In this document: positions 1 to 60,755 of the stretch, in pieces
How positions within the stretch are numbered: position 1 is the stretch's first letter
How the letters are laid out: each line of letters begins with the position of its first letter
Translations under genes and position numbers: made by a program
From: Bugula neritina
Taxonomy: Eukaryota > Animalia > Bryozoa
Reading direction: 5' to 3'
Assembly: GCA_964035545.1 (NCBI GenBank)
Contig: OZ037767.1
Location: 5,348,707 to 5,412,706 of the forward strand
DNA: 64,000 nucleotides
The notes under the pieces: generated by a model
The model's database searches: none
Seen by the model: only the letters and a program-made list of their open reading frames with translations
What the model was told of the DNA's origin: nothing

Positions 1-265
1 ATTATTTTCCTAAAATCTGAAATTAAAACATATAGGTATACAATTATAGAAATATAAAAATATGGTAGAAATGTATAAATCAAGAAATATTATATTGATG
101 TATAAGCATAGGAATGTAGAAGTCTAGTATAATTGATATATAAACGCAGAAAAATAGGATAATATAAATGTAGAAATATAAATACAGAAATATATAATAT
201 TATTACTATAGAAGCATTAAAAAACTATTTCTTCTGTTGCTACTTGCAGATATCCTATATCCAAT

Positions 266-693
266 ATGAAGTTTATTGCTTTGTTGATGATTACCGTCAT
301 AATCATTCCTATGAGTAAGTAAAGATGTTAAGAATGTCTCAGCAATGAACTCTAACTTGATAGTCACACAAGTTCTGCCTTCAATAATGATCATAATGAA
401 GGAAGACCAAATATAACTATCAAGTCTTAAGTTTAACTTTTGTCTCTTCTAAAGAAACCTTTAGCCATGATTAATAACGTTACCAACATTCATGTGAAAA
501 TTCTCTATTCAAAGTAAAATAATATGATAAAAATGTTAATTTTTTAGTTGAATACACAAGAGGTGTTAAATTCTTCCCAGATATTAAACTTACTGGAAGC
601 AAGAACAGTTGCAAAGATTTTTGTTATAGGAAAAGCTTTAAAACAGCCACATTTGGATACGGAGTTTGTATCTGTAGCCAAAAGTCATCATGA
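266..693 (+). CDS. Small secreted cationic cysteine peptide (defensin/CSab-like), 2 coding exons, 64 aa
   Basis: Exon 266-314 (MKFIALLMITVIIIPM, phase-1 donor A|gtaagt) joins exon 548-693 (acceptor ttttag|) giving IEYTRG-VKFFPDIKLTGSKNSCKDFCYRKSFKTATFGYGVCICSQKSS*. Hydrophobic signal peptide, CxxxC...GxCxC motif, AATAAA at 827-832, and an upstream acceptor ttgcag at ~249 implying a 5' UTR intron. Confidence 0.75.
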
Positions 694-1335
694 TCATTAC
701 CCTCATACCCACACCTGGCCTTTGGTTTACTAACACAGCTAGTATATAGGAGTACATTTTGTTTGTGTAAATTGAAAAGTTTGCATTTAATTTAATGTTT
801 CTTTGTCTTTCAACTAGTTATTAGACAATAAAGCATGTGATAGAATTAAATGAGTGTATTTTCTGTCTACTGTCATTTTGTCTAAGCTACTAGTTTAAAT
901 CATGTGAAATTAGGGAAAGATGTACACAAACAATGCGTGCATATGTTTAATCAAGAAAAATTATAGCTATAGAATTTATTTCTCTTATAAAATTAAATGA
1001 TTTTTTTCGTTCTTATGATATTGAAAGGCTAAACAAAACAGTACCAACTTCTTTGAGCAATATAAAATTAAATACATGTTTTCAAAATACTTACAAGTGA
1101 CAAGCTTGTTACTACATAATAAATATTTCTGACAAAATGACACCACATTTTTAAGTAGCCTATAGAACACTATACTTGGACCACTTGAATCTATGAATGT
1201 TAATCCAAGTTTGTTGATACAAATAGCTAACATTTCAGTTTATGCATTCAAAAGGACAATCAGAAGCTTTATTCAACATCCTAAACACTCGTAGTGACTA
1301 AAAGGTCTTTTCTTTTGCATATAGGTTGTTTCAGC

Positions 1336-4300
1336 TTAAACTGCCACAATTAAAATAATGAAAACTAATATTTTCATAATTCCTTGTGTAGTCAGCAGTT
1401 GAGATGGGCAGCTGTTTGCTATTTGGTTGATGATGTTCTGGACAGCATCTGCAGTAATGTTTGTATTCTCAAAGCTTATGATCCCCTTGCCTACAACAGA
1501 AATAACTATTCATTAAACAGCTGTGTTCTACTTCCCCAAAGTATTTTATACAATGCTAAGTTAAATATAAAAACATAAAAACTGCATTGAAAAAGTAATT
1601 TATCTCCCTTCACTTCTGTTATACTTGTTATATATTAAAAATTTTGCTCTAATGCGCTGTATTCATTAAGCTGTTCAACTTGGAGTATATTATCACAAAG
1701 AGAAATAAGAAGGTTCAAGAAATATATTTTATCTAATATTAGGTAATAGCATTCCTTTGACTATCTCTGGTGTTGCAAAATTTAAATAGTTGACCACATT
1801 ATAGGATGTTAACCAATCAAATGCATTTCACCATCGTGTTACCAGAAATCAGATGATTATACTCATAAAAACTGATTTTTGATAATAATTGAAGATCTAT
1901 ACAGCAACTGAAATAAAAGTTATAATCTTAAGTTGTAATTCACTATATCAACTATAGCTGAGAATAATTGATATAACAAAATATTCTACTCCATATTTCA
2001 CTTTTGCAAAAATAAGTTGTATGCTTTCTCACTGCATGCTTGAATTGGTGGTTATTGTTATACTTTAATCAACTGTGACACTACGATGTAAGCAATCTTT
2101 GAAAGTTGATATTGTTTTTGAAGCCTACCTTCCTTTGATTTATATTCATGGCTCCAAATTAAAATTTCATAACCAGTAATAAGCTTGATATAAACTTTCA
2201 GATCATAAGTTTCTGCTGTTTTTAGCACTAAGGCAAAGTTAGTAGTGTTGGGTGGTTTGTAGTTGCTCTCAAATCCGGTGTAGTTCAGCTTCAGTTGTGC
2301 TGTGCAAGCATCCAGCTTCTATAATAAATATTCAGCATAGAAATTATTTCAAACATCGGTTCGAGTTGGCAGAAAGCCAAGTCCTAGATCCTCTTAGTGT
2401 CTTAAAAATCTCTCTTTATATAGAGAAGAGCTTACCGCATGTCATGTCTATCACAATTGCTTATAATGAAATATTTTTAGGCTCATTGGTCTATTTAGCA
2501 AAATTAAATGTTTTTAAAATCAAATCATTATTACTTGGTTTACGATTAGTTATATTATTTAGCTTTGTAAACATATCAAAGTTCAGTAAATTGAGATAAA
2601 AACATATTTGTTGCAATTACATCGTCTATTTATTGATTCAAATAAATAGGAAACTTTGTGGAAGGATTTAAAACAGAGTTTTTGGAAAAATACAACCTTA
2701 TTAGAAAGTTTAGTAAATATTTAATATCAACTTACATAATTTTTGAATAAAGTTACAATGGCCCCCACTTCATCCTCTGCTGAACATATCCTGTACGTGT
2801 CCAGTTCAATCTTTTTTTCAGATTGACCTCGTCCTAGATATGATAAAAGTGGACTTGTGCAGATAATATGTATTAAAAATATTGAACACATTTTATAGAG
2901 TTGTTCTATAAGCAAGCTCTTTATATAGTCGGGTGACTGAGTGTAATAATTTGGGTGCTCAAGTTTGATGCTAGGTCCCTCAACTCCAAACTTGAGAGTC
3001 ACAAATTTTTACACTCAGTCACCTGCAACCCGAAGCTGCTTGTATAGGAAAATTTCATTTGACATGCATCTACCTTTGAAATTAGGCCATACTACTAACA
3101 AATAAATTTAACTTTTATTCTAAATATAATCAACAACCTTGTATTTAGCACCACTAGTTTGATGTTACGAATGTCATTTCATACTTATAATATACCTGCG
3201 CAGATTTGGACAGATGGTGAATATTTATCTTCAAGCAATTCTTCTCCTTGAAAGTTTCTCACTATCTGTACAGCAACATAGTATGGAATACTTGCATCTG
3301 GTAAACTGAGTAGTACTCTGTCAGTATCCACAGGTATGAAACTATCATGACATTCAACTTTATTGAGTAAGTCAGTGTCTGTAGCACAAACTACTCTGTA
3401 TCCAGCCACCACAACACTCTCCTCAGATGTAAGCTTTGCAGGAAGAGAAATCCAGATCTCACCTTCATCAAGGTCACCGTTGTAGTCTGGTGTAGGGGCA
3501 GATTGTAAGGCAATATATTCTGTAAAAGATGTCAATGGGTTACTTGAGTGTTCAATTGCTATGTATATAATACGTTTACTATAGAAGAATGAGATATCTA
3601 ACATGATTAAGAAAACAAGCCACAAATACTTTATGTGTATAGAATAATTTCTCAGTATAATTTCAAAATGGGAAATTATATGCATATCGAATTTTTCAAT
3701 CATTATTCAATACCAAGAAAAGCCGTCACATATTATAAATATATACTGAGATAATGATGTTGTTCATTTTATAGTTCATCTAAAAAGCCAATTCAATGTT
3801 CAATAACAAGTAGGTGCTCGTTTTAACATTTTAATAAAACTTTGAAAATACCACACAGCAACTTTTTGATATATTGCACCATATTTTTATAAACATAATT
3901 TTATTTCTTTTTATGCACATACATACATTGCTGGTATTGCTGCTTTAGAAAATACGTAAGAAGAGTAGGTTGTTGTAAAAAGCTTTTCAAAAAAATTGTA
4001 CAAAATGTAAGTCAGCCTTTAAAACATTTTCAGCTCGGAACAGAAATCTTGCAAACCTGAAATGTAGGCTTTTAGTGCTGCATTTTGTGATGAAACGGAT
4101 ACCAGGTTGTTGCAATCTCCTTCCCCACTGGCAGCTATTCCAAGGATGTCATTTTGTTTTATCACTTCTTTGTCATTCTGAACAAACTGAAATCTAGCTG
4201 CCGATGAACTGCTGCCTGGTTGAAGTAAGGTTACGCTAGTCGTCTCATAGTTGTCTGAGAAAACATTCCTCAAAATTTCTGCCGTGGTTACGGGGCAGTG

Positions 4301-7300
4301 TTGAACATTCGCTGACTGACTTATGTAATATTTCCAGCCGACTAAATATCCAGATACTGGTATTTTTAACGTTGGCAGCTTAAGATAATCTCTCCCTGTG
4401 GTGGCCCCTAAATCTTCAACAGTGTTGGGCGTGGTTGATGCCGAGGTACCTGTTCACAAAACAAATTGCAACGACTAATTTTTGCTTTTGACTATTTAGT
4501 TAAAAATAAGAAAATTATTTTTAATATGCACAGCAATTACACTACTTGGCTTTGTTGTTTAAATGCTATACACTTTGTTGTTAAATGCTATAAACTTTAA
4601 GTTTTATTTTGCATACAATAACTCTTTTATGCTAAAAATAGATAACACTGAGTAACTTATATCTGTAACTTATTATATACAAATAAATAGTGCCTAGGAG
4701 AGAGAGCCCAGGTCTAGAATGACCCAGGTCATAGGTTCAAGTTATTGGTGATGCCTAAAAAAGAGCCAAATTTTCTGCCAGTAATCAAAAGGTATTATGC
4801 ATTATAGGATTGAGGTTTTAAAGGGAAATAATGTGTAGCTTAGTCTCAATATTGCAAAGCCTTTTAATAATCACATGATCTTAATTAAATACAGTGTTAA
4901 AACAAAGTTGGTTCTAATTTATAGCCACGTATTTTTGATGAAATAGTTTTGTCTTACGAATGAGTTGCCAATGACGAAACCTGATAATACTTATATACGT
5001 TGTTTTTTCCAAATACTGAATTGACTGTGAAAATAAAAAAAAATAAAAAAAAGCATATATAAATGAATTTGTTAGATTTCAACTATTTGACTCTATGGTG
5101 ATCTAATTCTTTTTTGTTCTCTCAATAATTATTTTAAAAAGTAATAAACATTTATAACTCTGTTTTGACTCACTTTTATACCACGCTGGTATATTGTACA
5201 ACATAGTCTCTCTTTCACTTGAATCTAGGTCACCAGTCGCATCTTTGCTGTACATTTTACATTCATCAATGTTCTTACTTCTTGCTACAGAAATGCACTC
5301 TTGGTCACCTGTTCCAAGATGTCGGATACAATCTACCATGCAGTCGGCCACACTGGTGTGCTGTGTAGTTTTAAATGAGTCACCAGTGGCAGTTGTTTGT
5401 GGTCTCCACGGCAACCAAATTCCTTTAGTTTTAAAAGTACAAAAAATATGTAGTTTACCTCTTGGCTTTCTGTTTAATAATTTGTCATACTATCACCATT
5501 ATAGCAAATTAATTAAACCACTAGTTTAACGAAGTTCAATCTAGCTGCTGTGATAAGTGCGTGCCTTAATTCATGACCTATAAAATGATAACAGCTTATT
5601 ACCAAGCATATGTTTTGCAAAGTTAATTGATACTATCATACTATCTTACACTTCTACATACAGTATAATTGACTGTAAAATAATAAATTGGTACATATAT
5701 TTTACATAGCAACTAAGCTCAAAACTAATGTGAAGTAATCTACTCATGTCTCTAAAACTTGATTCCTGCAAATAAGCAATAGTATTCAAAAAAATAACTA
5801 TTACTTTACCATCGCAAGGAGGTCTGCTCATAGATATCCATCCCTGGACTGTTTCAAAACTAGCAGACGTTTCATCTTCTACTAGCAGTTCACACGTTCC
5901 CGTGTTTGGTTCATAGTTCGATGCTACGCATATAAATTCTAGTGCAGAAGAACAGAGTGATTTGCAGTGTGCCACACTAATTGCTGTCGTAGAACTAGTT
6001 CCACCGTATAGTGATGTCAATTTACCAGCGCGGATCTGCCACTGGCACAATAGATCAGAATCTATAGAAAAAAACAAATACTCTATCAATATAATAAAAA
6101 TTAAAAACAATATTTTAGGAAATGAATTCTTTAATTTGCTTTGAATTAGTAAGTCTTTACAATTATATTAAAAGTTTTGTTTCTGTTGATTACTATAGGG
6201 GAGCCACTGTGGTCTAGGGGTTAGAAGGTTTGCCTAGTAAGTACGAAGTCATGAGCAAAGGCCATTGGTGGTGAAAAGAAGAGCATCTAGTCATAATTGC
6301 TCTTGTGCCCCACCTGAATAAGTCCTTAGCCCGATTTAACAAAAACCTTTTCAGCATGTGTTTTCTCGCAAGGATAGCGACTAAAATTTCTTGTGTGAGT
6401 TTGTTTCTGTTGATTACTTGATATAGATTATACCTGCTGGGGGTGTGTATTCAAGGCTCCAAATTAGTATATCAAAGCCAGTAATTAGCTGTAAATACAT
6501 CTCCAAGTTGTATGGGGGCGTACTGTTTAAAGGGACGGCAATCGCAGTTGTGCGAGAAGAGTTGTAAAGTGTTTCCACGCCTTTATTCCTAAATTTGATG
6601 TTTCTTACACATTGATCTGAAGTCTGTAAGGCAGGAAGTAAATTATATGAATTATGTATTATAATATATAAGTAAACTTTGTTTTTGTGTTTTACAAAAG
6701 TTTTTTGTAACAGCTTTTTTAAAAACTGAATAGTTTGATATACAACAACAGATGATATTTCAATATCTCATTATATAAACAGTACAAAACCAACTATTAT
6801 AGATGCACTGAAATTACTTAGGATATTAAAAAACAGTTACATATATATTTATTACAAAAGTAAAATCTGAAACCAAATTTTTAATAGACACTAATAATTT
6901 ACAGCTATTTACTGAATGACTACCAAAATTTTTTTCTAAAAGGACTTTAAGAGTTGCGCTTCCCCGAAGCTCCATTCTCTATTATCCTATAAATATGAGG
7001 CTAAAAGTAGTAACTCTAAATTTTTTTAGGTTTTTAAGCAAATTTTTTTTGTTGACCAAAAATAGCATTGCTTTGTATAATTAGTATATAAGAATAATAA
7101 ATTTATGTTACAGTATACATATACATTGGGAAAAGTGTTTGCTTGGGCATAAATCACTCAATAGCTTATATATTAAAACTATTATTAGCCTATGATTTGT
7201 TATTAGAAAAATCCTAAAACTAATAGTTTTTTAATTTAGCTTTGTGCATGGTTATATAAGTATCGGTTGTACATTATACACAAGGAAACTATAAATAGAA

Positions 7301-9736
7301 AATAATCTTGACTTACAAAATCTTTTATCAATGTAATGAGTAGTTCATCATCTAATTTCACACCGTCTGCTGCGTTTTGACGATAATATCGAAGTTTAAT
7401 ATTCTTAAAGTCTTTTCGACCTACAAGTTTATAAATGTAGTAATAAACAGGCGTACTAACTCTATCTTATAAGCAAACAATGACAAACTACTATCAATAA
7501 ATGAAATAAAAGTGAAAAAAAGCATAATAAGGATGTGAAAAATAAAATATCTAGCTCCACACATTACCAAAAGCTTATTTAAGACATTCATAAAAATTGG
7601 TTTTTGCCAAAACATTATAAGTTACAATTTTTGACCAATTAAACTGGTGCCATGCATACAACTGAAATATTTCATACTGGAAAATATTTGCACTTAAAGA
7701 TATATCTTATATGAGTGCAAACTGAATCTTTTAGTGCAATGCTTTAACTTTTGCAAGACATTGTATAGCATACAATTTGAAAAGCTTAGTAGTACAAAAT
7801 AACTCATAATTGTTAATTGAACTTGATAGACAAAACACAGTTAAAATGATATATAAAGTTTTAGATCCATCATCATCTAACTACCAACCTGCGCAGATTT
7901 GGACAGATGGTGAGTATTTATCTTCAAGCATTTTTTTTCCTTGAAAGTTTCTCCCTATCTGTACAGCAACATAATATGGAATACTTGCATCTGGTAAACT
8001 GAGTAGCACTCTGTCAGTATCCACAGGTATGAAACTATCATGACATTCAACTTTATTGAGTAAGTCAGTGTCTGTAGCACAAACTACTCTGTATCCAGCC
8101 ACCACAACACTCTCCTCAGATGTAAGCTTTGGAGGAAGAGAAATCCAGATCTCACCTTCACCAAGGTCACCGTTGTAGTCTGGTATAGGGGCAGATTTTA
8201 AGGCTAAATATTCTGTAAAAAATCAGGTGGTTTCATGAAATTAATTGTTTTTCATATTTTACTCATTTTTAGAAATTATTCGACTAAGTTATGCGCAGAT
8301 AATCTACAACAAACTGCTAGTAAATTGCTGATTTATTGTATGAAACATAATTTGTATATTTTAGAAAATTATTATAGGTACCTATTGCGTTTAAAGTTTA
8401 CCTAACTTATCTAACTTATATTTAAAACGATTTTAAATCAACCCAATTCATTTAAAAACAATATTTTTCTTTTTTTAAGTGTATTGGAGACTTGGCAAAC
8501 ATATTTGTAGCTAACTCAGTTCTAAACTTGCAGAAACAAACTCTAGCTTGAGTAATTCTGAAGTTACTAACCAGATATATATGCTTTAATTGCTGCTTCC
8601 CCATATGTATTGTCAGCATTTCTAGACACTGATACCACGTTAGTGCAGTTTAACTTAGTTGGTGTTTTTGAAGATCCCAAGGCAATGGTGTCATCTTTCC
8701 TTACTCTTCCACTTGAAAACTGCTGAAAATTGAATCTGATCCCAGTATCAAGCTCGAAATATGATGATAGGCCATTGTGAATAGCGATATCGTATATTCC
8801 TGGCTCTTGTTCTGTTATGATTCTAGCATAACTGCTAGGACATCGATTGAGATCAAAAGGATCAGCTACATAAAACATCCATCCTACCAGATATCCAGAA
8901 ACTGGTAATTTCATTTGTTCAAAGATAATGTTACTTCGTTCATGAATTCTGGCGCCTAAGTCTATCATCCTAGCTTGTGATGAAGAACCTGCTGAGGTTT
9001 TACAATAATATTTAACAGTTCATTACACTACTATAACTGATTATTTTATGATATTAGCGTAGTCTACTGTAGTTATAAAGATCGAAAATAATGCAATGAG
9101 AAATTGTGTTAACTAGTTCAAACCAGAGCTTCATAAAATATTGAGCGAAACAATTATCGGCATACTACTATAAGAAATAAAAGATACTGCAATATTTTTC
9201 ATCTTAATTGGAAAATGCTGCTCGAAGGTGTTACACAGTTTGTATTATTCCTTACCTGAGTACCAAGGTGGTTTACCAAAGTATATTGAATCATCAGTTG
9301 AAGTAAATGAGTTGGAATTGCGTGAAAAACCGGACTGACGAATTTGAAGAGTACAGAATCGTCTATTTGCATCAGAAATTGTATGTAGTATATAACCACA
9401 GTTAGAGGCACTTTTCAAACAGGCAATAATGCACTCTTTAAATGTTGCTTCAAACATATTACCAATTTGAAGGTGAAAGCCTGACTGAACTCGTTTCCAT
9501 GGCAACCACATACCTAAAACAGGTACAGAGATCTAATTACAGCACAGTTGCAATGATTAAAACACTTTCTAAACATTGTACCTAACTTTTAGAGACTTAA
9601 CTACAGTTTATCTGGGGTTTGCGGTTGATGTGATAGAAAGTTTTATTTGAAGTTATATCAATTGTTTCAGTTTTATTCTGAATAATAAATTTTAAAGAAA
9701 GCCTCTCTCTCTCTTTCTTCTTTCTCTCTCTCTTTT

Positions 9737-9773
<37 letters not shown>

Positions 9774-9787
9774 GAAAGCCTCTCTCT

Positions 9788-9841
<54 letters not shown>

Positions 9842-11551
9842 TCGTATTCATTAGATTCAAATTAACTATACTAAAGCTACGCACCTTCACAGAGCGGTCT
9901 TCTATAATAGACCCATCGGGTTGCTAATGAACTGTCAGGGTTAACTAACAATTCATCTTCGAAGTAGATAACTTCACAAGACTTGTTTGAAGCCATGTAG
10001 TTTATTCCAGTACATACTGTATCTCTGTCCAGACTGGTGCACCAACCCTTACAGTCTGTAGGACTGTTTGCTAAATACAGGCCTGGCCATTGATATCGTG
10101 CAGCAAGTTTTCCACTTCCCATTTCCCACTCGCACTTTAAACTTGAACTTACTTCTGCAGCACATTATGAATAATAGAAATCAATTTATAATCAGCTATT
10201 GAATGCACTTTTAAAACTGCTGTGCATTTATTTAAAAGTTTTACTTATACCCAAGTAATAATTATTTAACAAAAATTCTGTGCCATAGTTGACTGGATAG
10301 AAAAACCTTTCACTTTACTAATTAGCTGTTTTCAGAAAATTAATAATTTTACCTCTACCTTTCAGTTGCTATGGTAACATATTTAGCTTACAATATTGAC
10401 AAATTTTCCAGCAAATTTGGCACGACTCTGATATTTTCTAAACCAACACTATCAAAAATATAGACAGCCTTTTGCAAATTATACATGTTGTTTATATGTT
10501 TCTTTAGAAAATAACCGAGCATATATAGGCATTAATTGAATGAGTTTATGCTCAATACATTTGGTAGCACCATAAGAATACACTTGACTTTCTGTAGATT
10601 CAAAATTGATAAAATTCTACACAAATTTAATTTATAGTGGTTACTCTGTTGTTTATTGTGAAAGAAATCCACGGCATATAACATCTAATGGTTGATAATA
10701 TTATGATGTTTTTTCAACTGTTTAACACAACCCTCTGCATTCTTGAACAAACTTTTAAATGCATAACTTAATACAACTTATTATGCAACAAAATTTAATT
10801 ATATAATTTTTCGTTATAATACACTATAACACAATAAGTTATAACATAATATAGGATGTAAATGACATAACGTGATGTAAGATATTATAGTATAACATAT
10901 AATATGATGTAATATAATGTATTGCGTACTACATTATAATGTAATATACAATAAACTAATGTGATACGTACAATACATTATAATATAATATCCTATATAA
11001 TAAAACATATTACAATATAATGATTTATAATATATATGAGACACAGTAATGTATTGCAGTATACATAATATACATGTTACAATATTATATAAGTCAATGC
11101 GGTGTAATAAAGCGAACAGAATGAAATATATCATAAAATAATATATAATATAAAGCTTAACATACACTAGCTATGAAACATATAGTGAATAATATACAAT
11201 GTATTATTGTATTATGCACTAATATAGTTAAAACTTACACTGCAGTAAATAATTGTTATAGACTAGTCTATGTATTAATATAACTAATTTTAGTAGAATG
11301 TTTTACTATACCTTTCTGTATTATTTATACATACTAATGTAGTATAGAAAAGCATGAAAATCTTAACAAATCTTTGGACACATTAGTAACATTTGTTTAA
11401 CTTGTCTACAATATATTAGATGAGTAAAACAATTTTAAATTCTCAACTATATAAAAAGTAATAGACATATTTTTTAGAATCTTTAAACTTATATAATACC
11501 TGACAAGCATAGGATCGTCAGGGTTATGGAAGTCAGCATATTAAGCTGCAT
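1336..11551 (-). CDS. Secreted, probably GPI-anchored protein with 4 PAN/Apple domains: signal peptide + 2x[PAN-PAN-unknown beta domain-FN3-like-FN3-like] + hydrophobic C-tail, ~1091 aa
   Basis: 14 exons with canonical sites and matching phases: 11500-11551 (MQLNMLTSITLTILCLS), 9885-10154, 9256-9513, 8572-8988, 7889-8212, 7317-7420, 6434-6623, 5810-6061, 5174-5422, 4057-4449, 3196-3519, 2736-2833, 2129-2318, 1336-1490 (ends IMKILVFIILIVAV*). Sum is 3276 nt, in frame. PAN motif examples: CKSLCSSALEFICVASNYEPNTGTCEL and CIIACLKSASNCGYI. The FN3-like calls are tentative. Confidence 0.85.
6198..6400 (+). mobile_element. tRNA-derived SINE copy with target-site duplication
   Basis: Head gggagccactgtggtctaggggttaga (A-box-like), shared core cattggtg...gaagagcatctagtcataattgctcttgtgcc, 3' end ...tgtgtgagt. 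Flanked by a direct repeat ttgtttctgttgattact at ~6177-6194 and 6401-6418. Confidence 0.8.
9692..9843. repeat. (TC)n microsatellite with an internal duplication
   Basis: Long TC tract; the leader ttaaagaaagcctctctct occurs twice (~9692 and ~9769). Confidence 0.9.
10790..11260. repeat. Degenerate AT-rich short-period (about 5-mer) low-complexity tract
   Basis: Recurrent ataac/atata/atgta-type pentamers in intron 1 of the PAN gene. Confidence 0.5.
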
Positions 11552-12805: not shown

Positions 12806-15800
12806 TCATGGAAGCTGTGTACATTCTTGTTCTGTCTGTGACTGGCCTCTTTTCATTCTATTCCCCCTCTGTATGAAGACATATTTAGGTGAAGAAATGA
12901 AATTCCTCACTTTTTTCCAGACTCTCTGCATTGCTTTTTGCTCATCTTGAGATCTACTCTGTAAAAAGTTGCTAATTAATAAATATTGAGTTATTTTGTG
13001 GAAAACACTGTGTCTTTGTATATTTTAGCTGTTGCAGTATCCACACTTTAACCATCCTAATTACTAGTGAGAGACCAGGTATTTCGTAAAGGCATAAGCA
13101 CTATACTTTACATTAGTACACATGCAGATTTTTAAAAGTTTTTTAACTTATTAATTCACTTGTATCAATGAAAGCTAGCAACAGTTGCAACAGTTTCAAA
13201 TGTTGCATTATTATATTATTTATAGACCAGGAACAATTCCTTGCAATATAAGTTGACTGTAATATAAAGATATAAATGTGTGTCAGCAAAAGCAAAACTA
13301 TTGCGATAAAATACATTAGTTTAGTGATTTCTTATCTTAGAAATTAATTGAGTTGTATACGTGTTTACAGTCATACTTACGATATCAATAACCATTGTAT
13401 CGGCAGCGAGGAACAAGTTGAATGGTGCTTTGATTATTTCCTCATTGAGCTCTTCTAGTATCAGTACTAGAAACTTGTTGGGTTGGTGAACCTCAGATTT
13501 GCCTGTCATATTTCTACCTGTAAATAAGACAGAAACGTGATGCATCGGCACTATGGAGGCAAAACTATGCCCATAACATCTGAAAATCAACAAATATGAA
13601 ATTGGTTTAATTTGCATTGAAATACTGCGAAGCTTTGTAATAGTTGCTCGGCTTGAAGTTTTGCTATAACTGTCTCCACCTTTAACCCTATGTGCATGGC
13701 TGTTATAATGCATGCATGCATACATCTGTCTATGCCTATTACGTTATATATATGGCCACTTAGTTCTCCACACAAAGGTAAAGCTAATAATTAGCTGAAG
13801 TAATAAAGCAATAAATAGAAATGTGCAAGAATCATGTCCCATAAAAATATGACAACATATAATATAGTATTGAATGTAATACAATATGTATATTATATAA
13901 CATGGCGATTTAGCTATCGCACATTTAAATATAATAAATAGATAATGTATATTTTCTATAAAAGTGAAAAGAATATGTGTAACATATATAAAAAAAACAT
14001 CATACATGTTCAAAAACCATGTCTTGCAGTATATACGTCATGCAAAGAGTTTCAAGTTAACACTATGACAGATTGCATGCTTTGTTTTACATCTGTTTAA
14101 TAATAAATATAAATAAGAAAATGTACAACGTTTTAAAACATGTTTGTAGAAAAATCAGATAAAGAATTGGTCTGGCAATTGCTATGCAAGTTTTTCATCA
14201 AGAAATAAACATAAAGCTTGTTTTAATTTTTACTGACAGCCATGTATAGCAGTTGTTTTATTCTACATCATAATACCTTTAACGTTAATGTTTTAATTAC
14301 TATACTACGAAGTATACACAAGCTTTCAAATGTCATACATGAGAAAATAGAAATACATATTCGCAATATAGTTCAACAAAGCAATTGAAAATATTTCATT
14401 TCTACTCTAACCTGCCAGTATTTCAGCTTGACTAACACAAACAGGGTTAGTAAGGTAAGAGTTTGTTAGAAGAATGATGATTTTCCTGCTATTCTCCAGA
14501 GTTTCACACAGTTCTGTAAATGTGTTTGCACCAGGCTCAGAGTCTCTATCAGCTATAAACAGTTTCAGTCTCTGCTAATAAAAGTCAATGATCATGATAT
14601 ATTGAATAGTTTGTATGACAAGTTAACAAAGTTACAGATATTAACTCACATATCAAGAGTTTATACAGTTTTGAAAGTTGATATTCTCAACTGCAATGCA
14701 AAGATTCTGGCTTGCTTGGTACATTGCAGCTTGCAAATAGATTAAAGTTATTTTAAACAAATCCAATACAGACTCATTCTACTCACATTATTTTGTTCAT
14801 CAGTTTCCACCATGTCTCCACGTTCTACACCAGGAGCCAGTTTCTCTGCCACCCATCTAGTATCTCCTTCACTCTGTGTATTGTACGACACTAATGCATC
14901 ATACACACACTGCTGCTCAAACTTGACTTCTCTCATCTCATCAATTACTGCACTGACTACCACACGGCAGTGACTAATATACCAGCGATACTTGTAACAT
15001 GGGAGGGCAATCAATAGACTAACTAATATTCCAGCCACCACAATGCCAGAATATATTAAAGGCATTTTTATAAAGCAGAAAAACCTATCTGGTGTATAAT
15101 CAATAAATTTTACAGTTACACTTCTATTGTTTGCTTCTGGTGGACTACAAGTTACATCTTTAGTAATCATTAGAATTGAAGAAACATTCAACCAGTCTTC
15201 AAAATAATTATCACACTGACAAACAAATGGATTTTTATTAAAGGCAAACAAAGTAAGTTTTTCAAAATCATATTCAAAGCTGTCCAACGTTTCTTTTGAA
15301 AGTGAGCTGATAGAGTTGTCCTGAACATACAATGACGCAAGTGATTTCAGTCCCTTTAGATCAGATGCATCTAATGTTGACAAGGCATTAGAGTTCATAT
15401 TTATGACTGCCAATCTTGGACAAGCTATTGGAAGGTTAGTTGGCAGGGCCGTAATTGAATTTTGGGCTAACATTAAAAGCCCTAGCTCAGGCATATTGTC
15501 AAATAAGTAATTGGGTATGTATGTGAGTTGATTGTCAGTTAAATCTAAATGTTTCAGAGATAACTGTGATATGGCCTGAAAATTCTCTTTTGATTTTTGA
15601 CCAAGATAGTTATATGCTAAACTTAGGTAATGGATTGTCTTGCAAACATTGACACCAGTGACATCTGTCAGCTGATTGTGCTCAATAACAAGCTCTGTGA
15701 GATAAGGCATAACTCCACACAGTTTCGTAGAATCAACATAAGTGAATTTAGAGATAAGGTTTTGGCTTAATTTTAGAAGAAACATCTTTGAAAAATTATA

Positions 15801-17144
15801 GCTACCAATGCTTTGATTCTGGTTTAGGAAAATTGGAATGTTTTGCAGGAAATTGCTGTCTAAATACAAGCTTCCCAGCTTTGGAAAGCTATCAATTAAA
15901 CTTGTCAAATCGTAAGGTAGTTCAGAGTTTATGCCTATGTCAATCATGTTCAATGTTTTAACTTGTGATGTTGTATTTTTATCAAATAATGTGAGTTTTC
16001 TAGGTCCAAATAAGTTTCCATTTAAATTTAGATTTGTCATGTGTAATAATGAATTAAAAGTTCCATCTCTGATCCATGAAATTCCACACCATCCAATAAA
16101 TAATGTTTTAAGCTTATGAAATCCATCAAATATGTCTGGTGTTAAAGTGTTGCCAAATATTTTCTCCCCGTATCTTGTGTCAAGTGAAGAGAGTTCAGGA
16201 AGCATTTTCAAACCCAATAGACTGCGAGGATTCAAAAAGCAAGATTTGTTAGCAGAATTTGAAGTTGTCCAATATCTCATTGTAAGGGTTTTTAATGACT
16301 GAGGCAATTTTTCGAACAGTTGGCTGGCTTGTGATGGGCAATTTTGAAACAAAGGCAATCTGTCTATGACCAAACTTTGAAGACTTTTCAGTGGAGCTAA
16401 AATGTTTGGACCAGCAGAAAATATATTTGATTCACTCAAACAAATACTCTGAACATGGCTAAGAGGTTGGAGGTAGTCTGAGCTTATATCTTGACAATCT
16501 CCATGGCTAGTTCCAAAGCCATTTAGTACCAATACCTCTAGCCTAGTAAGATTTTGAAATTCTTCATCGATAGACATTTTGTTGTATTGACAGTTTTCCA
16601 AAGGATTGTAAGAAAACTCCATACTGCGTATTCTAGAAATACTTGGAAAAATGTTTACTGGGAAATGCCTGAACCTCCCATAAAGGAAAATCAGAGTCTT
16701 AATGTGATTATTTGAATCAAATAAGCCCAAAGGAAGTTGAGAGATGGAAGAATGGGTAAAATTAACATATTCCAAGTGAGGCTTATTAAGAAAAGTTCCA
16801 GATGACAAGGCTGTAATATTTTGACCAATCATGGTTAATTCCTTTAAGTTATAAAATTTGCTAAACACAGAGCTGTCGATTTGTACAGGTGGACCTGCGT
16901 AGGTTATTACCATATTTTGGGTACCAGAGTTTAACTGTCTAGGTATCACTTCATTAGCATTGCTGCTGGTACAAATAGCATTATATTGATCACATTTTAG
17001 ACACCCCGTTATGTCACAAAAACCAAGTTGGCAATTTCTATCATCATTTGGACATGTGTTCTTTTGGGTTGACACATCCTGAGTATTTAGAATAAATATA
17101 TAAAAAAGGAATAAAATTTTAGCTAGAGTACTAATAGTCTTCAT
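12806..17144 (-). CDS. Toll-like receptor (LRR-LRRCT-TM-TIR), single-cysteine-cluster type, ~936 aa
   Basis: Exon 14787-17144 carries the signal peptide, a Cys-rich N-cap, many LxxLxLxxN LRRs, LRRCT (NPFVCQC...VTCSPP...C), TM (LIYSGIVVAGILVSLLIALPCY) and TIR box1 YDALVSYN. Further exons: 14412-14574 (LFIADRDSEPG...LENSRKIIILLTNSYL), 13381-13517 (KFLVLILEEL) and 12806-12958 (RVWKKVRNFI...LP*). Phases 0/1/0 are consistent; total 2811 nt. Confidence 0.92.
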
Positions 17145-17215
17145 AGTCTACAAAAAACAAAACACAACCTTAAGTTTCAAGGCACATAATAGTGTATGCG
17201 TCCAGTTAATTTACT

Positions 17216-20390: not shown

Positions 20391-21186
20391 ATGTTCTTTT
20401 GGTCATTTGCTTTGCTAGTACTTCGAATTATTTATGTTATTGATAAAGGATTAATTCTGGAAGTTGATGTAAGTTCATATATTTAACTGTTTAGTGGTTT
20501 AGAAAAATTTTGACTATAAGTTTGAATTTTCAAATCTTTTTTATGTCTATTATGAGTAGCTTTACCTTTATAGTTATATCAACAAATTTACATTCTATGC
20601 AGCCTAATTGGTTCATAGATAAACAGCTACTGAATATATGTAAAAAAAATTACAAGAAATATTGAAAATATGACAGAAAAGTCTTTAGTGAAAATTACCA
20701 TATATACCGGTGATGCTAAAATAAGAAGTAACTGTTATGGAGAAAATAACTACAAAGTATGAGTTTGCAACACAACGTTTTTGTATCTCTGCTGCCTATG
20801 TACTCAATTTTTTGAAAATATTATATATTTTTTTAAATTATGCAACCTTTTATAGCAATTTTAATATATTTACAATAAATTTATGTAAAATTAGGGATTG
20901 GAAAACAGCTATAGGTCTGCACTGGTGTCTGAACCCTACCAGCTGGTAAATGCCACACTTGTTAGTGGAGTCAGATCTGCTACAGAGTGCTCAGTAGAAT
21001 GTACCCAGAAGCAGGCAAAGTGTGCAGCATTTCAGTATGACAGTAAGAGCAAGACCTGTTGGGTCTCTGAAGCTCCTCCTACAAACAGCACGTCTGGTGT
21101 TTTACCAAGTGAAGAGGCCAAGCTCTATCAGCAAGGTTCGTTGTTCATTTAACCGCAGTGTTCATTGCCTGCAAAATAAACTATAC

Positions 21187-21229
<43 letters not shown>

Positions 21230-23040
21230 TATACATACATATACATACATATATCATATGTGCTTATACTGTATGCTTATATTGCAAGTGTGCCCGGCTA
21301 GATGGACAAGAAATCCAATAAAATCGACGTGTTTATTCTTTGACTTTGAAAATGAATACACAAGAAATGGCTCTCAAGCTAAATGTGAAGAACTTGGGGC
21401 TAACCTCATTGAATTAGACAGCGAAGAGGTTTTTGATTGGTTTATCAGTCTAAGAGACAACCGGCCAGGTAATACCAAAGTTAAATGTTATCACAAATGT
21501 AACGCAGCTAATTCAAATAAAAATATGGTAATGATGATTTTATTCTAATGCGCGTAATTAAATATTTAGGCTTTTCCTACATATGTTGCACACACCGGAT
21601 TAATGCAAAACATTTTCTTGACTGCTTAGTATAATAATCAATTTTAAAATCATGTAAATGACTGTGCATTTTGTGCAAAGCTCCCTCCATACTAAATGTT
21701 TAACAAATACATTTGCAGTAACGTGCTTGCACTTTTTTATACTTTAAACTATGTTGCATTCAATATGCCAGTTATCAAACCCTAATTATTGCAACCTATA
21801 GATATATGTTGTTCGCATAGATATAGTACCCACAGTCTAGAATCTAGATGTGTAAGACATTGATCACGTGTGTAGTCTAGAGCTCATATTTGAATCTACA
21901 AAAAGAAAGTTGATATGCTACTATACATATTTGTTTTAAAAACTTATAAATATTCTATCAGTTATTCAGAATTTTTTAATATCTTGCTTGTTTATTCTTA
22001 CAAACTTATTTACATAGAAGAAATATTTAGTTTCAAAATGTATGATGAAAAACTACTATAGTTTATTCTTTTGAAGTTTGTAGATCAATTACCATATTAT
22101 ATTCAACCGAATTATGGACTGTTAGCGTGATGCTTTGTATTTATCTTATTGGCCCACTCTTCATGTTTTCTGCAATACTATAATGGTTTCATTATGTTTC
22201 ACCATCACCATTTTTCTTCCCTGTCTATATATGTTTTCAGCATATGTAAAAAAAAGCTGATCGATTGAAGTGTTCAGACAATTGAAAAATTAAACCTTTT
22301 TAATGCTCAATGCATTATTTTTATTTTGTCTTATGAAAAAAGTAACAAGTTTCATTTTATAGTCAATTGTCAAAAGTATTTCTTCAATTACATGCATGAA
22401 GATACCACAGCTTTTTAAAAACAAGTAAAAACCTATTCTTTTTTGAAGCTATATTTCACTTGCTTCAATTAGGGTTAGACATTACTGTTTACACAATAGA
22501 ATAGAATAAGCATAGACCTAGTGATAACAATTTATAGGAAGCAGCTTTGCAAATGGTCACAATATATTAAAAATAATTGATATTTTATAAGAATTCAGTA
22601 AGAGTTAAAATACTAAAAATACAATTTGCTTATATATTTTTCAAAAGCTTTTTTGCATTAGGTATATCTGTGAAGCAAGCAAAAAGGAATATTATACGCC
22701 ACTTCATAGTTTATCAATTGTATTTGATATCAAAATCACAAATGACAAATGTTGCAATACCTATTCAATACATAATGCATATAACATATATAATGAAACA
22801 TATAGTGCAATACTAATATTATTTAAAGAATTCCAGTTCATCGAAGTTTGGGTTGGCGCAATGTGGGATGGAGAAGAATACCGTTGGAGAAACGGTTTGG
22901 TTATACCCGATCATTGGTGGAGGTTAAGAGAACCTAACAGAAGTGGAGATTGTGTCAGTTCGTGTGACTCAAAGCAAAACTTTTTTTTACGAGATAAGCC
23001 ATGTGTCTCTTTAGTTGCATCCTATATTTGTGAAAAATGA
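20391..23040 (+). CDS. Secreted PAN/Apple + C-type lectin domain protein, 236 aa
   Basis: Exons 20391-20468 (MFFWSFALLVLRIIYVIDKG...), 20895-21135 (SATECSVECTQKQAKCAAFQYDSKSKTCWV), 21289-21468 (CPARW...CLFF...SQAKCEELGANLIELDSEE) and 22829-23040 (VWVGAMWDGEEYRWRNG...WRLREPNRSGDCVS...LRDKPCVSLVASYICEK*). Phases 0/1/1; 711 nt. Confidence 0.88.
21182..21253. repeat. (TA)n/(TACA)n microsatellite
   Basis: Intronic TA run between the PAN and CTL exons. Confidence 0.9.
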
Positions 23041-24564: not shown

Positions 24565-26679
24565 ATGATGTCTGTCAAGACAATGATGCTGTCTGTAATA
24601 TCTACAGCTTTACTGATTGGCTGCATTCAAGCCTATGGTAAGTTTGTGATTAATTGTAAACTATAATAAAATTAACTAGTCGCGTGCTTTTAAAGTACCT
24701 TGTTTTGTTTATTTACCTACAAGATATTTCTTATGGGTTTTGCAATTTGTTTTGTTTAAGATGTAATTAAATAGATTCCATAGTATCATAAATCAAATTG
24801 TTATATTTACTAATCTTCCTGTTTTAAATTGTTTTGAACAAACTTGCTGAGGACATAGGTGAGTAAGATCATAATCAGCTTTCTTAATGTTTTAGAATTT
24901 ATTACACTAAGCCTGCAATTATGATCAGCTTTTCCATAAATTTAAAAACCAATACTTGGTGGGAAAGGAGCATAAACATAAATTGTCTATAATAAACTTG
25001 CAGGCTAAGCTTTCAATTGCATTTTTATGCTCAAATTTCCTTTCTATCTAATAAAAAGCCAATAAGCATGGGTATTCTAGTGGTTAGAGCACAGGCTCAG
25101 TTATAAACACAAGGTCAGGGGCTCCAATCCCAGTAAAAGCCATTAGTAATATTAGGAAAGGCATTCAGTCATAATTGCTTCTATAATGTGCCACAATAAA
25201 AAGCAAGTCCTTAGTCTTTCTTTCCATGGGGAGGGGGGGTCTCACATGCAGTGATAGTGACTGCAAGCCCACAAAAGCATAATTTAAACATAATATACTG
25301 CTTTCTTAATAAGATATGCTATTCATTCCTACCGTCACACAATATCTGCTGGTATATATCGCTCATGCATGTTTATATTAAAAAAATGAAATAGAAGTAT
25401 GACTTATTTGCTTAAAGACTTAATTAATTATAAACTTATTTTCAGCTCAAAATTCTGTGGACAGATGCTTTCTAGACAAGAAAGTAGGACCTTGCAAGGC
25501 GTTAATACCACAATATTACTACAATGCTGGCAGTGGCCAATGTGAGCAGTTTTTCTATGGAGGGTGTAGAGGAAATGAGAATAGATTTAAGTGAGTAGTA
25601 CAATTGATTACAATATTCTTTATATGATTATATACTCACTCAGGCAAGTTTATAGTCATTATTCCTGTGAGAAACCTCTGATGAAAAGGGTTTTTGTTAA
25701 AGCGGGCTAAGGACTTATTCAAATGAGGCACAGGAGCAATTATGACTGGATGCTCTTCCTAACATCACCAATGGTCTTTGTTGGGGGGGGGGGTGGGGTT
25801 CGAACTTACGACTTTGAGTTCACAAAGCAAACGCTTTAACCCCTAGACCGTGGCTGCTCCCTTTTTTATACGATTATATATTACTCTAAATTACAAATTA
25901 ATGTAACGAGAGACTTTAGCTATAGCAAGTTATTATAGTAAATTACACTTTAGAGTTTAGATTAAGCATGTCAAATTGTAACTTTCCATTCTTCACACTG
26001 TACTGTGTGTATGCAAAACCTGTGTTATGATCTGTTTTGTTTCTTACATTTAAAAATTGGAATAAGTCTGAAATACATCAATCAGTGAAAAATAGTTTTT
26101 AAATTTGAACTCTTTCTAGATTATTCCTACTCCCACATCTGTCTACCATATATAGTAGACAGATGTGGGAGTAGGAATAATCTAGGTTTCAAATTAAAAC
26201 ACAAGCACAGTTATATATAACTGTGCTTGTGTTTTAATTTGAAACCTTTTTTAGTTCTGTAGAGGAGTGTGAGAGAAGATGTCCCAATCTGATTAGGAAA
26301 ATCTGTCGCCTTCCATCTGATAGTGGTCCCTGTGAAGCAGCAATATCAAAGTACTTTTACAATGCTGCCACAAAGAAGTGTGAGCAGTTCATTTATGGCG
26401 GCTGTCTGGGGAATGAAAACAGATTTGCGTATGTATAGCTATGTAATGTCTGCTTTATTTAGAGTTTAGACACTTCCACTCCTGTAAGTTCAGGCAGTTT
26501 AATAACTTTTATTTCAATCTGAGTGATGAAACTTTCATTTGAATTAAAAAGTTTTAGTCTTTCAAAATTTTAGTTGTTTTTTATATTATAGATAACTTTT
26601 GTAACAAAAATGGGATGACTGGCTTTTTCTTTTTTGTAGGACACTTGCAGAGTGTGAGAAGGTTTGCAGTCTCTACTAG
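24565..26679 (+). CDS. Secreted two-domain Kunitz/BPTI protease inhibitor, copy A (143 aa)
   Basis: Exons 24565-24637 (signal [25 protein letters not shown]), 25446-25590, 26255-26428 and 26640-26679. Domains [20 protein letters not shown]...[26 protein letters not shown] and [20 protein letters not shown]...[26 protein letters not shown]; all 12 Cys present. Confidence 0.93.
25069..25270 (+). mobile_element. tRNA-derived SINE copy (diverged) in Kunitz-A intron 1
   Basis: tctagtggttagagc head, ccaatccc B-box remnant, core cattagtaatattaggaaaggcattcagtcataattgct. Confidence 0.7.
25634..25861 (-). mobile_element. tRNA-derived SINE, full-length copy in Kunitz-A intron 2, absent from the paralogous intron
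   Basis: Reverse complement gggagcagccacggtctaggggttaaagcg...gttcgaacccc...cattggtgatgttaggaagagcatccagtcataattgctcctgtgcc...gagtgagt. Approximate TSD tttata(t/c)gattatata on both sides. Confidence 0.85.
26116..26247. repeat. Two abutting palindromes (70 bp with 1 mismatch; 64 bp perfect)
   Basis: 26116-26185 ctagattattcctactcccacatctgtctac-catatata-gtagacagatgtgggagtaggaataatctag; 26184-26247 aggtttcaaattaaaacacaagcacagttata|tataactgtgcttgtgttttaatttgaaacct. Confidence 0.95.
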
Positions 26680-27882
26680 ATTTGAAGGTCACTCAGCTAT
26701 CATAAGGTTTTCCATGCCTTCAACAATTAACATGCAGGAACTGTAATGCATACATGAAGAAACTAATATTGAAATTAGTTTTAAATTTAACAGTAAAACC
26801 TGCAACAGTGTTTTGATTTGAAGGTGTGAATACATTTACAGCCTGTTGACAAACTATTATTTTAGCCAGGGTGCTAAGTTACATTAGCCTTTATTACTGT
26901 GAATGAAGTAATCAAAGCTAATTGATTTTATAAGAGCAACCAAATTGACTATATATAATACAAATATTACATAATACAAAAGCTTTCCATAAGAATTGAC
27001 AACACCTGTACGACTAAATTTGATTTCTGTGACTAAAATTTGTCTTGCCACTTTTATAATGTTAATCCTAGTTATTTATTAATAACTTAAACGGAGATTC
27101 ACATCTTCTCCATAAAATAACTATAAGGATATCGGTATAAAAACTATTATGAGTTGCATTTCCTTATGCATAACATCCTTGGAAACAATGGTCTGGTGAT
27201 TAGATCACCAACTTAGACAACAATGCAGTGAATAATTCCAGTAAAGGTCATTGGTGATGCTAAGAAGGTCATTCAACTATAATACCATTTTCCGCCACAA
27301 CAGGAAACAAGTCCCTGACCCCTTGAAAAAAAATCTTTTTAAAGCTCAAGCATTTACAGCGCTTCAAGTTTATGCTAAATTTTATTTTGACCTGAGTGAT
27401 TAAAATTTTAGTTAAGCTTCAAAGCATTTCAGTGTTAATGTATTATTTTTGCTATTTTTATGAAAACAATTAGGACCGTAATTAGCATCTACAGGTGGAA
27501 AAATTAGTTGATATATATTATAATAAAATATCAATAGTGAGAAGTATATAAGGTAAGCTATCAACTACCTATAATTCACAAAAATTTAGGCTCTGCTTTT
27601 CTGATTGGACAAATGACAATTATTAAGATATTATTATCTGCTTAAAATAAAATAAAAATATAAATAACATGAAAATATCGCAATGATAATAATTATGTAA
27701 AAAGGATTCTTATAGATTTCTAAATAATTCTTTTTGTAAAGCTACTTCAACAAAATCATTCGCATTTATGTTTATATGATGAAAAAATAGATTATTAGTT
27801 CAAAAAAGTATATGATGTGAGTATACAAAGTAATGGCAGACAATAAAACCATTTACTAAGGTAGGTCAAGATTCTGAGCTTA

Positions 27883-27982
27883 TTATATATGTTGATGGTT
27901 TAGATTTGGAGATTGTTGACACTGTTGCCGTATAGTAACGGGAGGAGATTTCAGATTAAGTACAAGTCTGGTTTTAATGTCC
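27883..27982 (-). pseudogene. Duplicated copy of the terminal coding exon of the large membrane-protein gene (relic or alternative last exon)
   Basis: Intact acceptor tttcag|. Reads DIKTRLVLNLKSPPVTIRQQCQQSPNLNHQHI* versus DIKTRLVLNLKSPSVTTATGSTTSKSKTST* at 31414-31507; a 2-nt indel shifts the frame after ...VT. Confidence 0.75.
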
Positions 27983-28571
27983 CTGAAACACATGAAATGT
28001 ATGAGTTTAACTTTTTTAAGCCGATTTAAGTGAGTTTATGACAATTTTAAAAGCAGAAATATTGTTTTAAAATTTGGATCCAGAAAACAAGTTTTAAAAC
28101 AATTGCTAAGCAACGTTTTTAATCTTTTATCAAAACATATGATTTAGGTGATCTGATATCCTTTATTTTTATGTGTCAGTTAAGAGTCCGGCGGCTAGTT
28201 AGATATTCACTCAGCCTTTTCGCAAACGAGATTTGTTATGAAATTAGTATATGGAACAGGTGCCTATAAATTTGCAATGAAAATATGAAAAAAATGACAT
28301 TAATTGCGTAATATATTATAAACTAGTAGACAGTATAGTAATGACATTGCAGCACATAGATACTGCAGAAAACATTAAAGAAATTCAATCTTTGTTATTT
28401 TATCATCAATTACTCTTTTAACTAGGATATTATGGTCACGTGCTTATCTAACAAACATAAAGTATATATGTATATTAAGCCTGATGAATGCTATAAAGAC
28501 CTTAGAACAAGATAGTATATAAACAGCAGGAGTGTATAGAGTTAGAAACCTGTCACTAAAGCTGCACCTAC

Positions 28572-31413: not shown

Positions 31414-60755
<29,342 letters not shown>

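What the first reader, a model, noticed from the sequence alone, without database searches (positions are those of the whole stretch)
266..693. Hidden two-exon gene for a cationic four-cysteine defensin-like peptide
Seen: the peptide is absent from the ORF track because an intron splits it. The predicted mature part (VKFFPDIKLTGSKNSCKDFCYRKSFKTATFGYGVCICSQKSS, 7 K + 1 R vs 2 D) has C-x3-C and G-x-C-x-C. Known: this is the CSab signature of invertebrate defensins, which normally have 6 or 8 Cys and often a phase-1 intron at the end of the signal peptide. Inference: both partners of the C1-C4 bridge are missing (Phe sits at the C4 position), so this would be a minimal two-disulfide CSab antimicrobial peptide ~12 kb from a TLR. 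A stand-alone WSC-like fragment is an alternative reading.
Basis: partly seen in the sequence, partly recalled or inferred. Interest (0 to 1): 0.78.

Follow-up and report, generated by a model that had tools for sequence, protein, structure and literature searches.

The report
Orphan two-disulfide defensin-like animal peptide
A small intron-split animal gene with no detectable relatives is predicted to make a secreted, positively charged 42-residue peptide shaped like a defensin but with only two of the usual three disulfide bridges, and it is likely a defence peptide, though nothing has been tested.

Summary
The gene model is in the sequence as described: ATG 266, donor GTAAGT at 315, acceptor at 546-547, stop 691-693. 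There is also an upstream acceptor (5' UTR intron) and AATAAA at 827. Only 5 of 569 simulated windows give such a locus. A second haplotype keeps frame, splice sites and all four Cys (3 of 5 coding changes silent, P=0.05). AlphaFold2 folds the 42-mer as strand-helix-hairpin (pLDDT about 80-82, all five models). No relative was found in any collection searched; splicing is not shown. The 'CS-alpha-beta defensin' label is only partly supported. The peptide has the two-bridge CSH motif but lacks the third bridge and the G-x-C that define the family. The phase-1 intron is generic. Fold matches are tied between defensins and PAN/apple domains (all Z under 7). It is not a WSC member either (8-10 bits against 40-65 for real cores), though a faint WSC likeness remains (about 2% of Cys-fixed shuffles reach it). 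Best reading: a lineage-specific cationic CSH host-defence peptide, more likely antifungal or membrane-binding than a classic antibacterial defensin (about 0.5). Ancestry is open.

The parts
225..249 (+). Polypyrimidine tract and CAG acceptor of a predicted 5' UTR intron; the upstream exon was not located
   Evidence: sequence
250..265 (+). Predicted 5' UTR part of the first coding exon; open in frame but likely non-coding
   Evidence: alternate contig lacks one base at 256 and one at 258, which would shift any upstream frame
266..314 (+). Coding exon 1: ATG (A at -3), Met-Lys and hydrophobic core of a predicted signal peptide
   Evidence: mean hydropathy 2.9 over residues 3-16; SignalP not available
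315..547 (+). Predicted 233-nt phase-1 GT-AG intron
   Evidence: GTAAGT donor, T-tract + AG acceptor; both kept in the alternate contigs; splicing not shown
548..693 (+). Coding exon 2: end of the signal peptide (small residues at -3 and -1, rule recalled), mature peptide, TGA
565..690 (+). Predicted mature 42-residue peptide, 4.7 kDa, net +6, 7 aromatic residues; strand 7-10, helix 13-22, strands 27-31 and 34-38
   Evidence: cleavage site inferred
610..675 (+). CSH core: Cys16 (610) and Cys20 (622) on the helix, Cys35 (667) and Cys37 (673) on the last strand; bridges 16-35 and 20-37 inferred by analogy
   Evidence: the fold tool reports no disulfide geometry
785..832 (+). 3' UTR with two ATTTA pentamers (785, 790) and AATAAA (827-832)
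   Evidence: ATTTA is common at 30% GC, so weak
1336..1491 (-). Context: last exon of the convergent multi-PAN gene, ending in a hydrophobic tail and stop; shows that the peptide gene is not its antisense shadow

Best explanation
The locus is an intact, intron-split reading frame that is predicted to yield a secreted, cationic 42-residue peptide with a helix tied to a beta-hairpin by two likely disulfides, and it likely acts in host defence by binding anionic microbial membranes or wall components. Shown: frame, splice signals, composition, second-haplotype integrity, absence of detectable relatives. Predicted: splicing, signal cleavage, fold. Inferred: the bridges, secretion to a body surface or fluid, and the mechanism (eight basic residues draw it to anionic lipids, seven aromatic residues insert). 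Lacking the C1-C4 bridge and the G-x-C loop, it is more likely antifungal, antiprotozoal or generally membrane-active than a classic anti-Gram-positive defensin. It works like a CSH/defensin-like peptide; descent from defensins is not shown.
For: Gene: 5 of 569 simulated windows give such a locus. The alternate contigs show 5 coding differences, 3 silent and 2 conservative, no coding indel, and no difference over 589-728, which holds all four Cys (P=0.052, pN/pS 0.16). Fold: single-sequence AlphaFold2 pLDDT 85.5 for exon 2 and 79.8-81.8 in 5 of 5 models of the 42-mer. Top Foldseek rows for the exon-2 model are mostly plant defensins (best E 0.14); VIA-align gives MOPD-1 Z 6.6 (rmsd 1.6, 43 aligned) and nasonin-1M Z 4.0 (rmsd 1.8, all 33 residues). 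Atlas neighbours are Toxin_3 and gamma-thionin clusters, 0.75-0.77, 10 of 10 in one clan, whereas a real WSC core cut to the same length is called WSC at 0.93. Chemistry: pI 9.5, net +6. Precedent: coprisin without its C1-C4 bridge keeps its CD spectrum and antifungal activity but loses antibacterial activity (PMC4281341); the CSH-only AdDLP is active on Plasmodium only (PMC5116183).
Against: No sequence tie to any defensin: 0 Pfam families and 0 PDB sequences at E up to 10, whereas a six-Cys bacterial control gets 31. Atlas scores under 0.8 are what shuffled sequences often get. For the 42-mer the best VIA match is an apple domain (SML-2, Z 5.3, rmsd 2.8, 42 aligned), tied with HGF NK1 (4.5) and a plant DEFL (4.4), and Foldseek's best row is unrelated (E 0.79). 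The same precedents show that two-bridge forms can be inactive on bacteria. SNP density is no lower in coding (5 of 195 nt) than in non-coding DNA (13 of 424). No paralogue in the window, though defence peptides often come in clusters (own knowledge). No control fold of a shuffled sequence was run.
Confidence: 0.5

Rival explanations
1. A free-standing mini-protein cut down from a WSC or PAN/apple domain, keeping only the helix, two strands and the two core bridges, and binding glycans or a partner protein as those domains do. This concerns ancestry and may coexist with a defence role.
For: WSC ties its helix to strand 4 by the same two bridges (Wsc1 C49-C69, C53-C71; Kremen1 C147-C167, C151-C169; PMC9024836, PMC5014086). 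A profile from 35 WSC sequences scores the peptide 9.0 bits (9.7 with the 13 not picked by my DNA pattern); 51 and 55 of 3000 Cys-fixed shuffles reach that, and it ranks first of 1333 frames in the window. Phe, Ala, Tyr-Gly fall on conserved WSC columns. Kremen1 WSC has the highest identity (25%) of the 50 rows (Z 3.9, rmsd 2.5, 40 aligned). At least nine PAN/apple chains (recognised by title, partly from recall) are among the 50 rows. The next gene encodes PAN domains.
Against: Real WSC cores cut to 43 residues score 39.8-65.3 bits (32 of 32 with the core; 3 of 35 lacked it) and all have a 15-residue spacer, against 14 here; the first Cys, the CGG loop, and the Tyr, Gly, Gln, Phe, Gly columns are not matched. 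The Atlas calls a cut WSC core WSC but not this peptide. A profile of six PAN exons from the window gives 1.6 bits. Caveat: my WSC set is mostly bacterial and uniform, so animal WSC domains may lie closer.
Confidence: 0.2
2. A secreted CSH peptide with a non-antimicrobial job: receptor ligand, enzyme inhibitor, toxin-neutralising or ion-channel-binding peptide.
For: The scaffold serves many functions and Cys pattern does not predict activity (PMC5116183; PMC5234102; PMC11116330 passages). Short scorpion K-channel toxins reach TM 0.59-0.61 to the 42-mer model.
Against: The KCXN motif of alpha-KTx (PMC11561630 passage) is absent: the matching stretch has no Lys or Cys. High positive charge with no acidic face suits membrane binding (inference).
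Confidence: 0.2
3. Not a working gene: a chance arrangement or a silent relic.
For: No relative anywhere. The silent-to-replacement excess is borderline (P=0.052) and rests on two haplotypes that may come from the window's own source animal. The null was built after seeing the locus.
Against: Start context, two acceptors, consensus donor, signal-like exon, Cys motif, poly(A) signal and a confident fold coincide in about 600 bp; 5 of 569 nulls match even part of this.
Confidence: 0.1

Closest known systems
CS-alpha-beta (cis-) defensins: plant defensins such as PhD1 (1n4n), PsDef2 (7lns); insect nasonin-1M (2kp0)
   Same: Size, positive charge, signal peptide, predicted beta-alpha-beta-beta fold, C-x3-C on the helix and C-x-C on the last strand, spacing compatible with x9-[C4]-x4
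   Different: No C1-C4 bridge, no G-x-C, no His before the second helix Cys, no detectable sequence similarity
AdDLP of Anaeromyxobacter dehalogenans (CSH-only defensin-like peptide; PMC5116183)
   Same: Four Cys forming only the CSH motif; no gamma-core GXC
   Different: Bacterial; no sequence comparison was made here; this peptide is animal, intron-split and strongly cationic
WSC domain (PF01822; Kremen1 5fws/9vfr, yeast Wsc1)
   Same: Same two helix-strand bridges; Phe, Ala and Tyr-Gly in matching columns; structural match over Kremen1 133-174 with 24-25% identity
   Different: Half the length, two of four bridges and the CGG loop missing, spacer 14 not 15, 8-10 bits against 40-65
PAN/apple domains (SML-2 2yil, HGF NK1 7mob)
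   Same: Best or tied structural matches for the 42-mer (Z 5.3 and 4.5)
   Different: The window's own PAN exons have no C-x-C and score the peptide 1.6 bits; PAN has five strands

Membership tests
CS-alpha-beta defensins | CSH motif: C-x3-C on a helix and C-x-C on a strand | tested here: met
   sequence; Cys16/20 in helix 13-22 and Cys35/37 in strand 34-38; bridges themselves not reported
CS-alpha-beta defensins | Third bridge (C1-C4) that completes the fold (PMC5116183, PMC5234102) | tested here: not met
   only four Cys in the whole reading frame
CS-alpha-beta defensins | Gamma-core G-x-C at C4 | tested here: not met
   the matching residues are A-T-F; pattern from PMC6435467 and PMC5234102 passages
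CS-alpha-beta defensins | Helix packed on an antiparallel sheet, matching solved defensins | tested here: inconclusive
   topology met; best Z 6.6 and 4.0-4.9, tied with PAN and unrelated folds
CS-alpha-beta defensins | Profile match (Defensin_2, Gamma-thionin, Toxin_2, Toxin_3) | tested here: inconclusive
   no Pfam hit, but HMMER's filters drop weak matches; Atlas 0.75-0.77, lead only
CS-alpha-beta defensins | Signal peptide with a phase-1 intron near its end | tested here: met
   not diagnostic (PMC5308243; same layout in the neighbouring PAN gene)
CS-alpha-beta defensins | Antimicrobial activity | not testable with these tools
   needs the peptide
WSC domain (PF01822) | Eight Cys, four bridges, CGG motif (PMC9024836) | tested here: not met
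   four Cys; the frame stops five residues after the last Cys
WSC domain (PF01822) | 15-residue spacer between helix and strand Cys, and a profile score in the family range | tested here: not met
   spacer 14 against 15 in 32 of 32; 8.4-9.7 bits against 39.8-65.3; mostly bacterial reference set
PAN/apple domain (PF00024) | Profile match and five-stranded sheet | tested here: not met
   no Pfam hit; 1.6 bits against six PAN exons of the window; three strands predicted
Short scorpion K-channel toxins (alpha-KTx) | Six Cys and KCXN motif | tested here: not met
   sequence; motif from PMC11561630 passage

The most novel reading that the evidence does not exclude
A defensin look-alike built from a different parent: the helix-hairpin core of a WSC/PAN domain was cut free, put behind a signal-peptide exon and made cationic, giving an antimicrobial peptide that converges on the defensin shape; or it marks an unrecognised evolutionary link between WSC and CS-alpha-beta folds.
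Probability: 0.15. Interest if true: 0.75.

Novelty: new variant of a known kind. Interest (0 to 1): 0.42.

Why it matters
The only natural CSH-only defensin-like peptides named in the papers I read are myxobacterial and were proposed as ancestors of the family. A natural animal example would test whether the third bridge can be dropped in a working defence peptide and what activity is left. It is easy to make (42 residues, two bridges). It also shows that WSC cores and defensins share the same two-bridge element, so motif-based defensin mining can confuse them. If it proves inactive, it is one more orphan secreted peptide.

Tried and rejected
No whole genome is held, so paralogues outside the window could not be sought. 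No RNA holder listed; the one holder X1 gave contigs that run through the intron with no joints. Relatives: 0 hits by phmmer in 1.84 billion representatives, no candidate in the 5.8-billion word search for 25-83 aa (longer forms not searched), 1 of 211 pattern matches passing in metagenome contigs, L001, rejected as a 15-residue chance match at the edge of a gene in GC-rich bacterial DNA; L002-L004 from viral pattern scans were chance; one search found nothing. No paralogue in the window. Antisense shadow of the neighbouring gene rejected: it ends at 1336. An upstream coding extension is disfavoured by two one-base losses in the alternate contig. BLASTP against one WSC protein: no alignment. 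A matched CS-alpha-beta profile could not be built: Defensin_2 gave 1 match in 301 genomes and one more weak match in 13, so the shuffle test was run for WSC only. Kremen1 WSC was not among the 50 rows for the 42-mer model, which does not exclude it. The TLR search did not place the lineage: the two close hits are unnamed. Earlier findings: nothing relevant in four look-ups. Literature: eight searches; 'WSC domain + defensin + disulfide' gave 4 papers, none of whose titles or abstract starts links the two (passages read in one); I found no animal CSH-only defensin in what I read, but Tarr's supplementary alignment was not opened and may list some. No complex prediction was sent: no partner is claimed.

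Full report
Observation. The window is AT-rich animal DNA (26-38% GC) with a TLR, Kunitz, PAN and TSP1 genes. At the stated place there is an ATG at 266 with A at -3, a 49-nt exon that encodes Met-Lys and a hydrophobic run, a GTAAGT donor at 315, a T-tract and AG at 541-547, and an exon that runs to TGA at 691-693. A second acceptor at 247-249 points to a 5' UTR intron, and AATAAA lies at 827-832. The predicted mature part (565-690) has 42 residues, 8 basic, 2 acidic, 7 aromatic and 4 Cys in the pattern C-x3-C-x14-C-x-C. The cleavage site rests on the recalled -3/-1 rule.

Is it more than chance? A crude finder for 'signal-like exon, intron, 45-110 aa frame' gives 14 candidates in the window and 13.8 on average in 569 simulated windows, so that part alone means nothing. 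With the Cys motif added, the window has one locus (two acceptor variants) and 5 of 569 simulations have one. The criteria were chosen after seeing the locus and ignore the start context, the upstream acceptor and the poly(A) signal. The only public run that holds the stretch gives pairs of contigs at about half depth each, which I read as two haplotypes; it may be the window's own source. Coding differences number 5: 3 silent, one Met to Leu in the signal, one Phe to Leu near the mature start; P=0.052 for that many silent changes, pN/pS 0.16. There is no coding indel, against 6 indel bases in the flanks (not significant, P about 0.3), and SNP density is equal in and out of the exons (5 of 195, 13 of 424; two positions pooled, and differences near contig ends are not listed). 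Bases 589-728, with all four Cys, lie in one invariant contig. Two one-base losses at 256 and 258 argue that 250-265 is untranslated. The neighbouring minus-strand gene ends at 1336, so the locus is not its shadow. I put a working gene at about 0.9.

Relatives. None was found by phmmer over 1.84 billion proteins, the word search, Pfam, PDB sequences or metagenome contigs. A six-Cys bacterial defensin-like control does hit 31 PDB sequences at the same setting. Conservation of the four Cys across species is therefore untested.

Fold. Single-sequence AlphaFold2 gives strand-helix-strand-strand for exon 2 (pLDDT 85.5 best, 67.5-74.7 for the other four) and for the 42-mer (79.8-81.8 in all five), with C-x3-C on the helix and C-x-C on the last strand. 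No shuffled control was folded. For the exon-2 model, Foldseek lists mainly plant defensins (best E 0.14), and VIA-align gives MOPD-1 Z 6.6, a designed EHEE protein 5.7-6.0, the apple-domain lectin SML-2 5.2, plant defensins 4.8-4.9 and Kremen1 WSC 3.9 with the highest identity, 25%. That model's first strand includes five residues that would be cleaved. For the 42-mer the order is SML-2 5.3, EHEE 5.0, HGF NK1 4.5, PDFL2.1 4.4, PsDef2 4.1, nasonin-1M 4.0, and Foldseek's best row is unrelated. All lie under the tool's line of Z 8. The fold is compatible with defensins and with the PAN/WSC core and does not choose.

Defensin or WSC? Tarr (PMC5116183; parts 1-2 of 8 and passages) defines CS-alpha-beta by three bridges, of which two form the CSH motif; the CSH-only AdDLP lacks GXC and acts on Plasmodium only. 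This peptide has CSH, but not the third bridge nor the Gly that normally sits two places before C4 (PMC5234102, PMC6435467 passages). The phase-1 intron is no sign of descent (PMC5308243 passages); the neighbouring PAN gene has the same layout. WSC domains use the same two bridges (PMC9024836, PMC5014086 passages). I gathered 35 WSC sequences (7 of 7 sent to Pfam were confirmed; L038 and L039 left out). The peptide scores 9.0 bits, or 9.7 with the 13 not picked by my pattern; 51 and 55 of 3000 Cys-fixed shuffles do as well. Real cores cut to the same size score 39.8-65.3 and all 32 have a 15-residue spacer. In the Atlas a cut WSC core is recognised at 0.93, while the peptide's neighbours are Toxin_3 and gamma-thionin clusters at 0.75-0.77 and nothing usable once those are skipped. 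A profile of the window's PAN exons gives 1.6 bits. So it is a member of neither family by the defining tests; it leans weakly to CS-alpha-beta by language model and weakly to WSC by residue columns. I could not run the matching shuffle test for defensins.

Mechanism. The most likely job is defence: a small, secreted, disulfide-braced, cationic and aromatic-rich peptide binding anionic microbial surfaces. This is inference from chemistry and shape. Coprisin without its C1-C4 bridge keeps its CD spectrum, loses all antibacterial activity up to 100 uM and keeps antifungal MICs of 12.5-25 uM (PMC4281341, abstract and Results), which is why I favour antifungal or membrane activity over classic anti-Gram-positive killing. 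The TLR is 12-14 kb off with another gene between, which is weak context. Rivals are a WSC/PAN-derived binder (0.2), another secreted function (0.2) and no working gene (0.1).

Verdict. It is a new variant of the CSH/defensin-like kind, an orphan with no expression, relative or activity data. Other papers seen only as passages: PMC6627431, PMC11561630, PMC11116330, PMC10608444. No supplements were opened; Tarr's full alignment may hold animal four-Cys cases. Interest 0.42; 0.75 if a WSC origin were shown.

Noticed in passing
window 1336-11551 (-): Multi-exon gene with a signal exon, four PAN-like exons (Pfam PAN_1 in three, one over cut-off) and internally duplicated unknown modules; exons 3185-3520 and 7881-8222 are 92% identical. 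It ends in a hydrophobic tail that looks like a GPI signal (recalled pattern, not tested).
   Followed up: partly
window about 12900-17147 (-): Toll-like receptor with a single long ectodomain exon and a TIR domain split by introns; closest relatives are two unnamed records (67% and 42%), named ones are about 22-33%.
   Followed up: partly
window 20895-23040 (+): Small gene with a PAN exon (Pfam E 1.5e-8) followed by exons that look like a C-type lectin domain (no Pfam hit on the separate exons).
   Followed up: partly
window 25424-29885 (+): At least four Kunitz-domain exons, likely one multi-Kunitz protease inhibitor.
   Followed up: partly
window 32604-52000 (-): Large likely membrane protein gene or genes with TSP1 and EGF-like exons, a 650-residue Ser/Thr mucin exon with repeated N-V-S-T units, and several C-x3-C..C-x-C modules (35701, 41873, 43095).
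   Followed up: no
window 355-425: A 72-nt stretch with 75% identity to its own reverse complement inside the peptide gene's intron.
   Followed up: no
window 1031-1354: The two contig versions in run X1 differ strongly here (16 substitutions and 11 gaps in 160 nt at 1196-1354), far more than over the peptide gene.
   Followed up: no
L039 (G269:C303:4364-4447): Six-Cys CS-alpha-beta-like module at the very end of a 306-residue bacterial open frame (Defensin_2 over cut-off).
   Followed up: partly
L036 and L037: Bacterial WSC domains in which the second helix Cys and its partner are both replaced, a natural loss of one core bridge.
   Followed up: no
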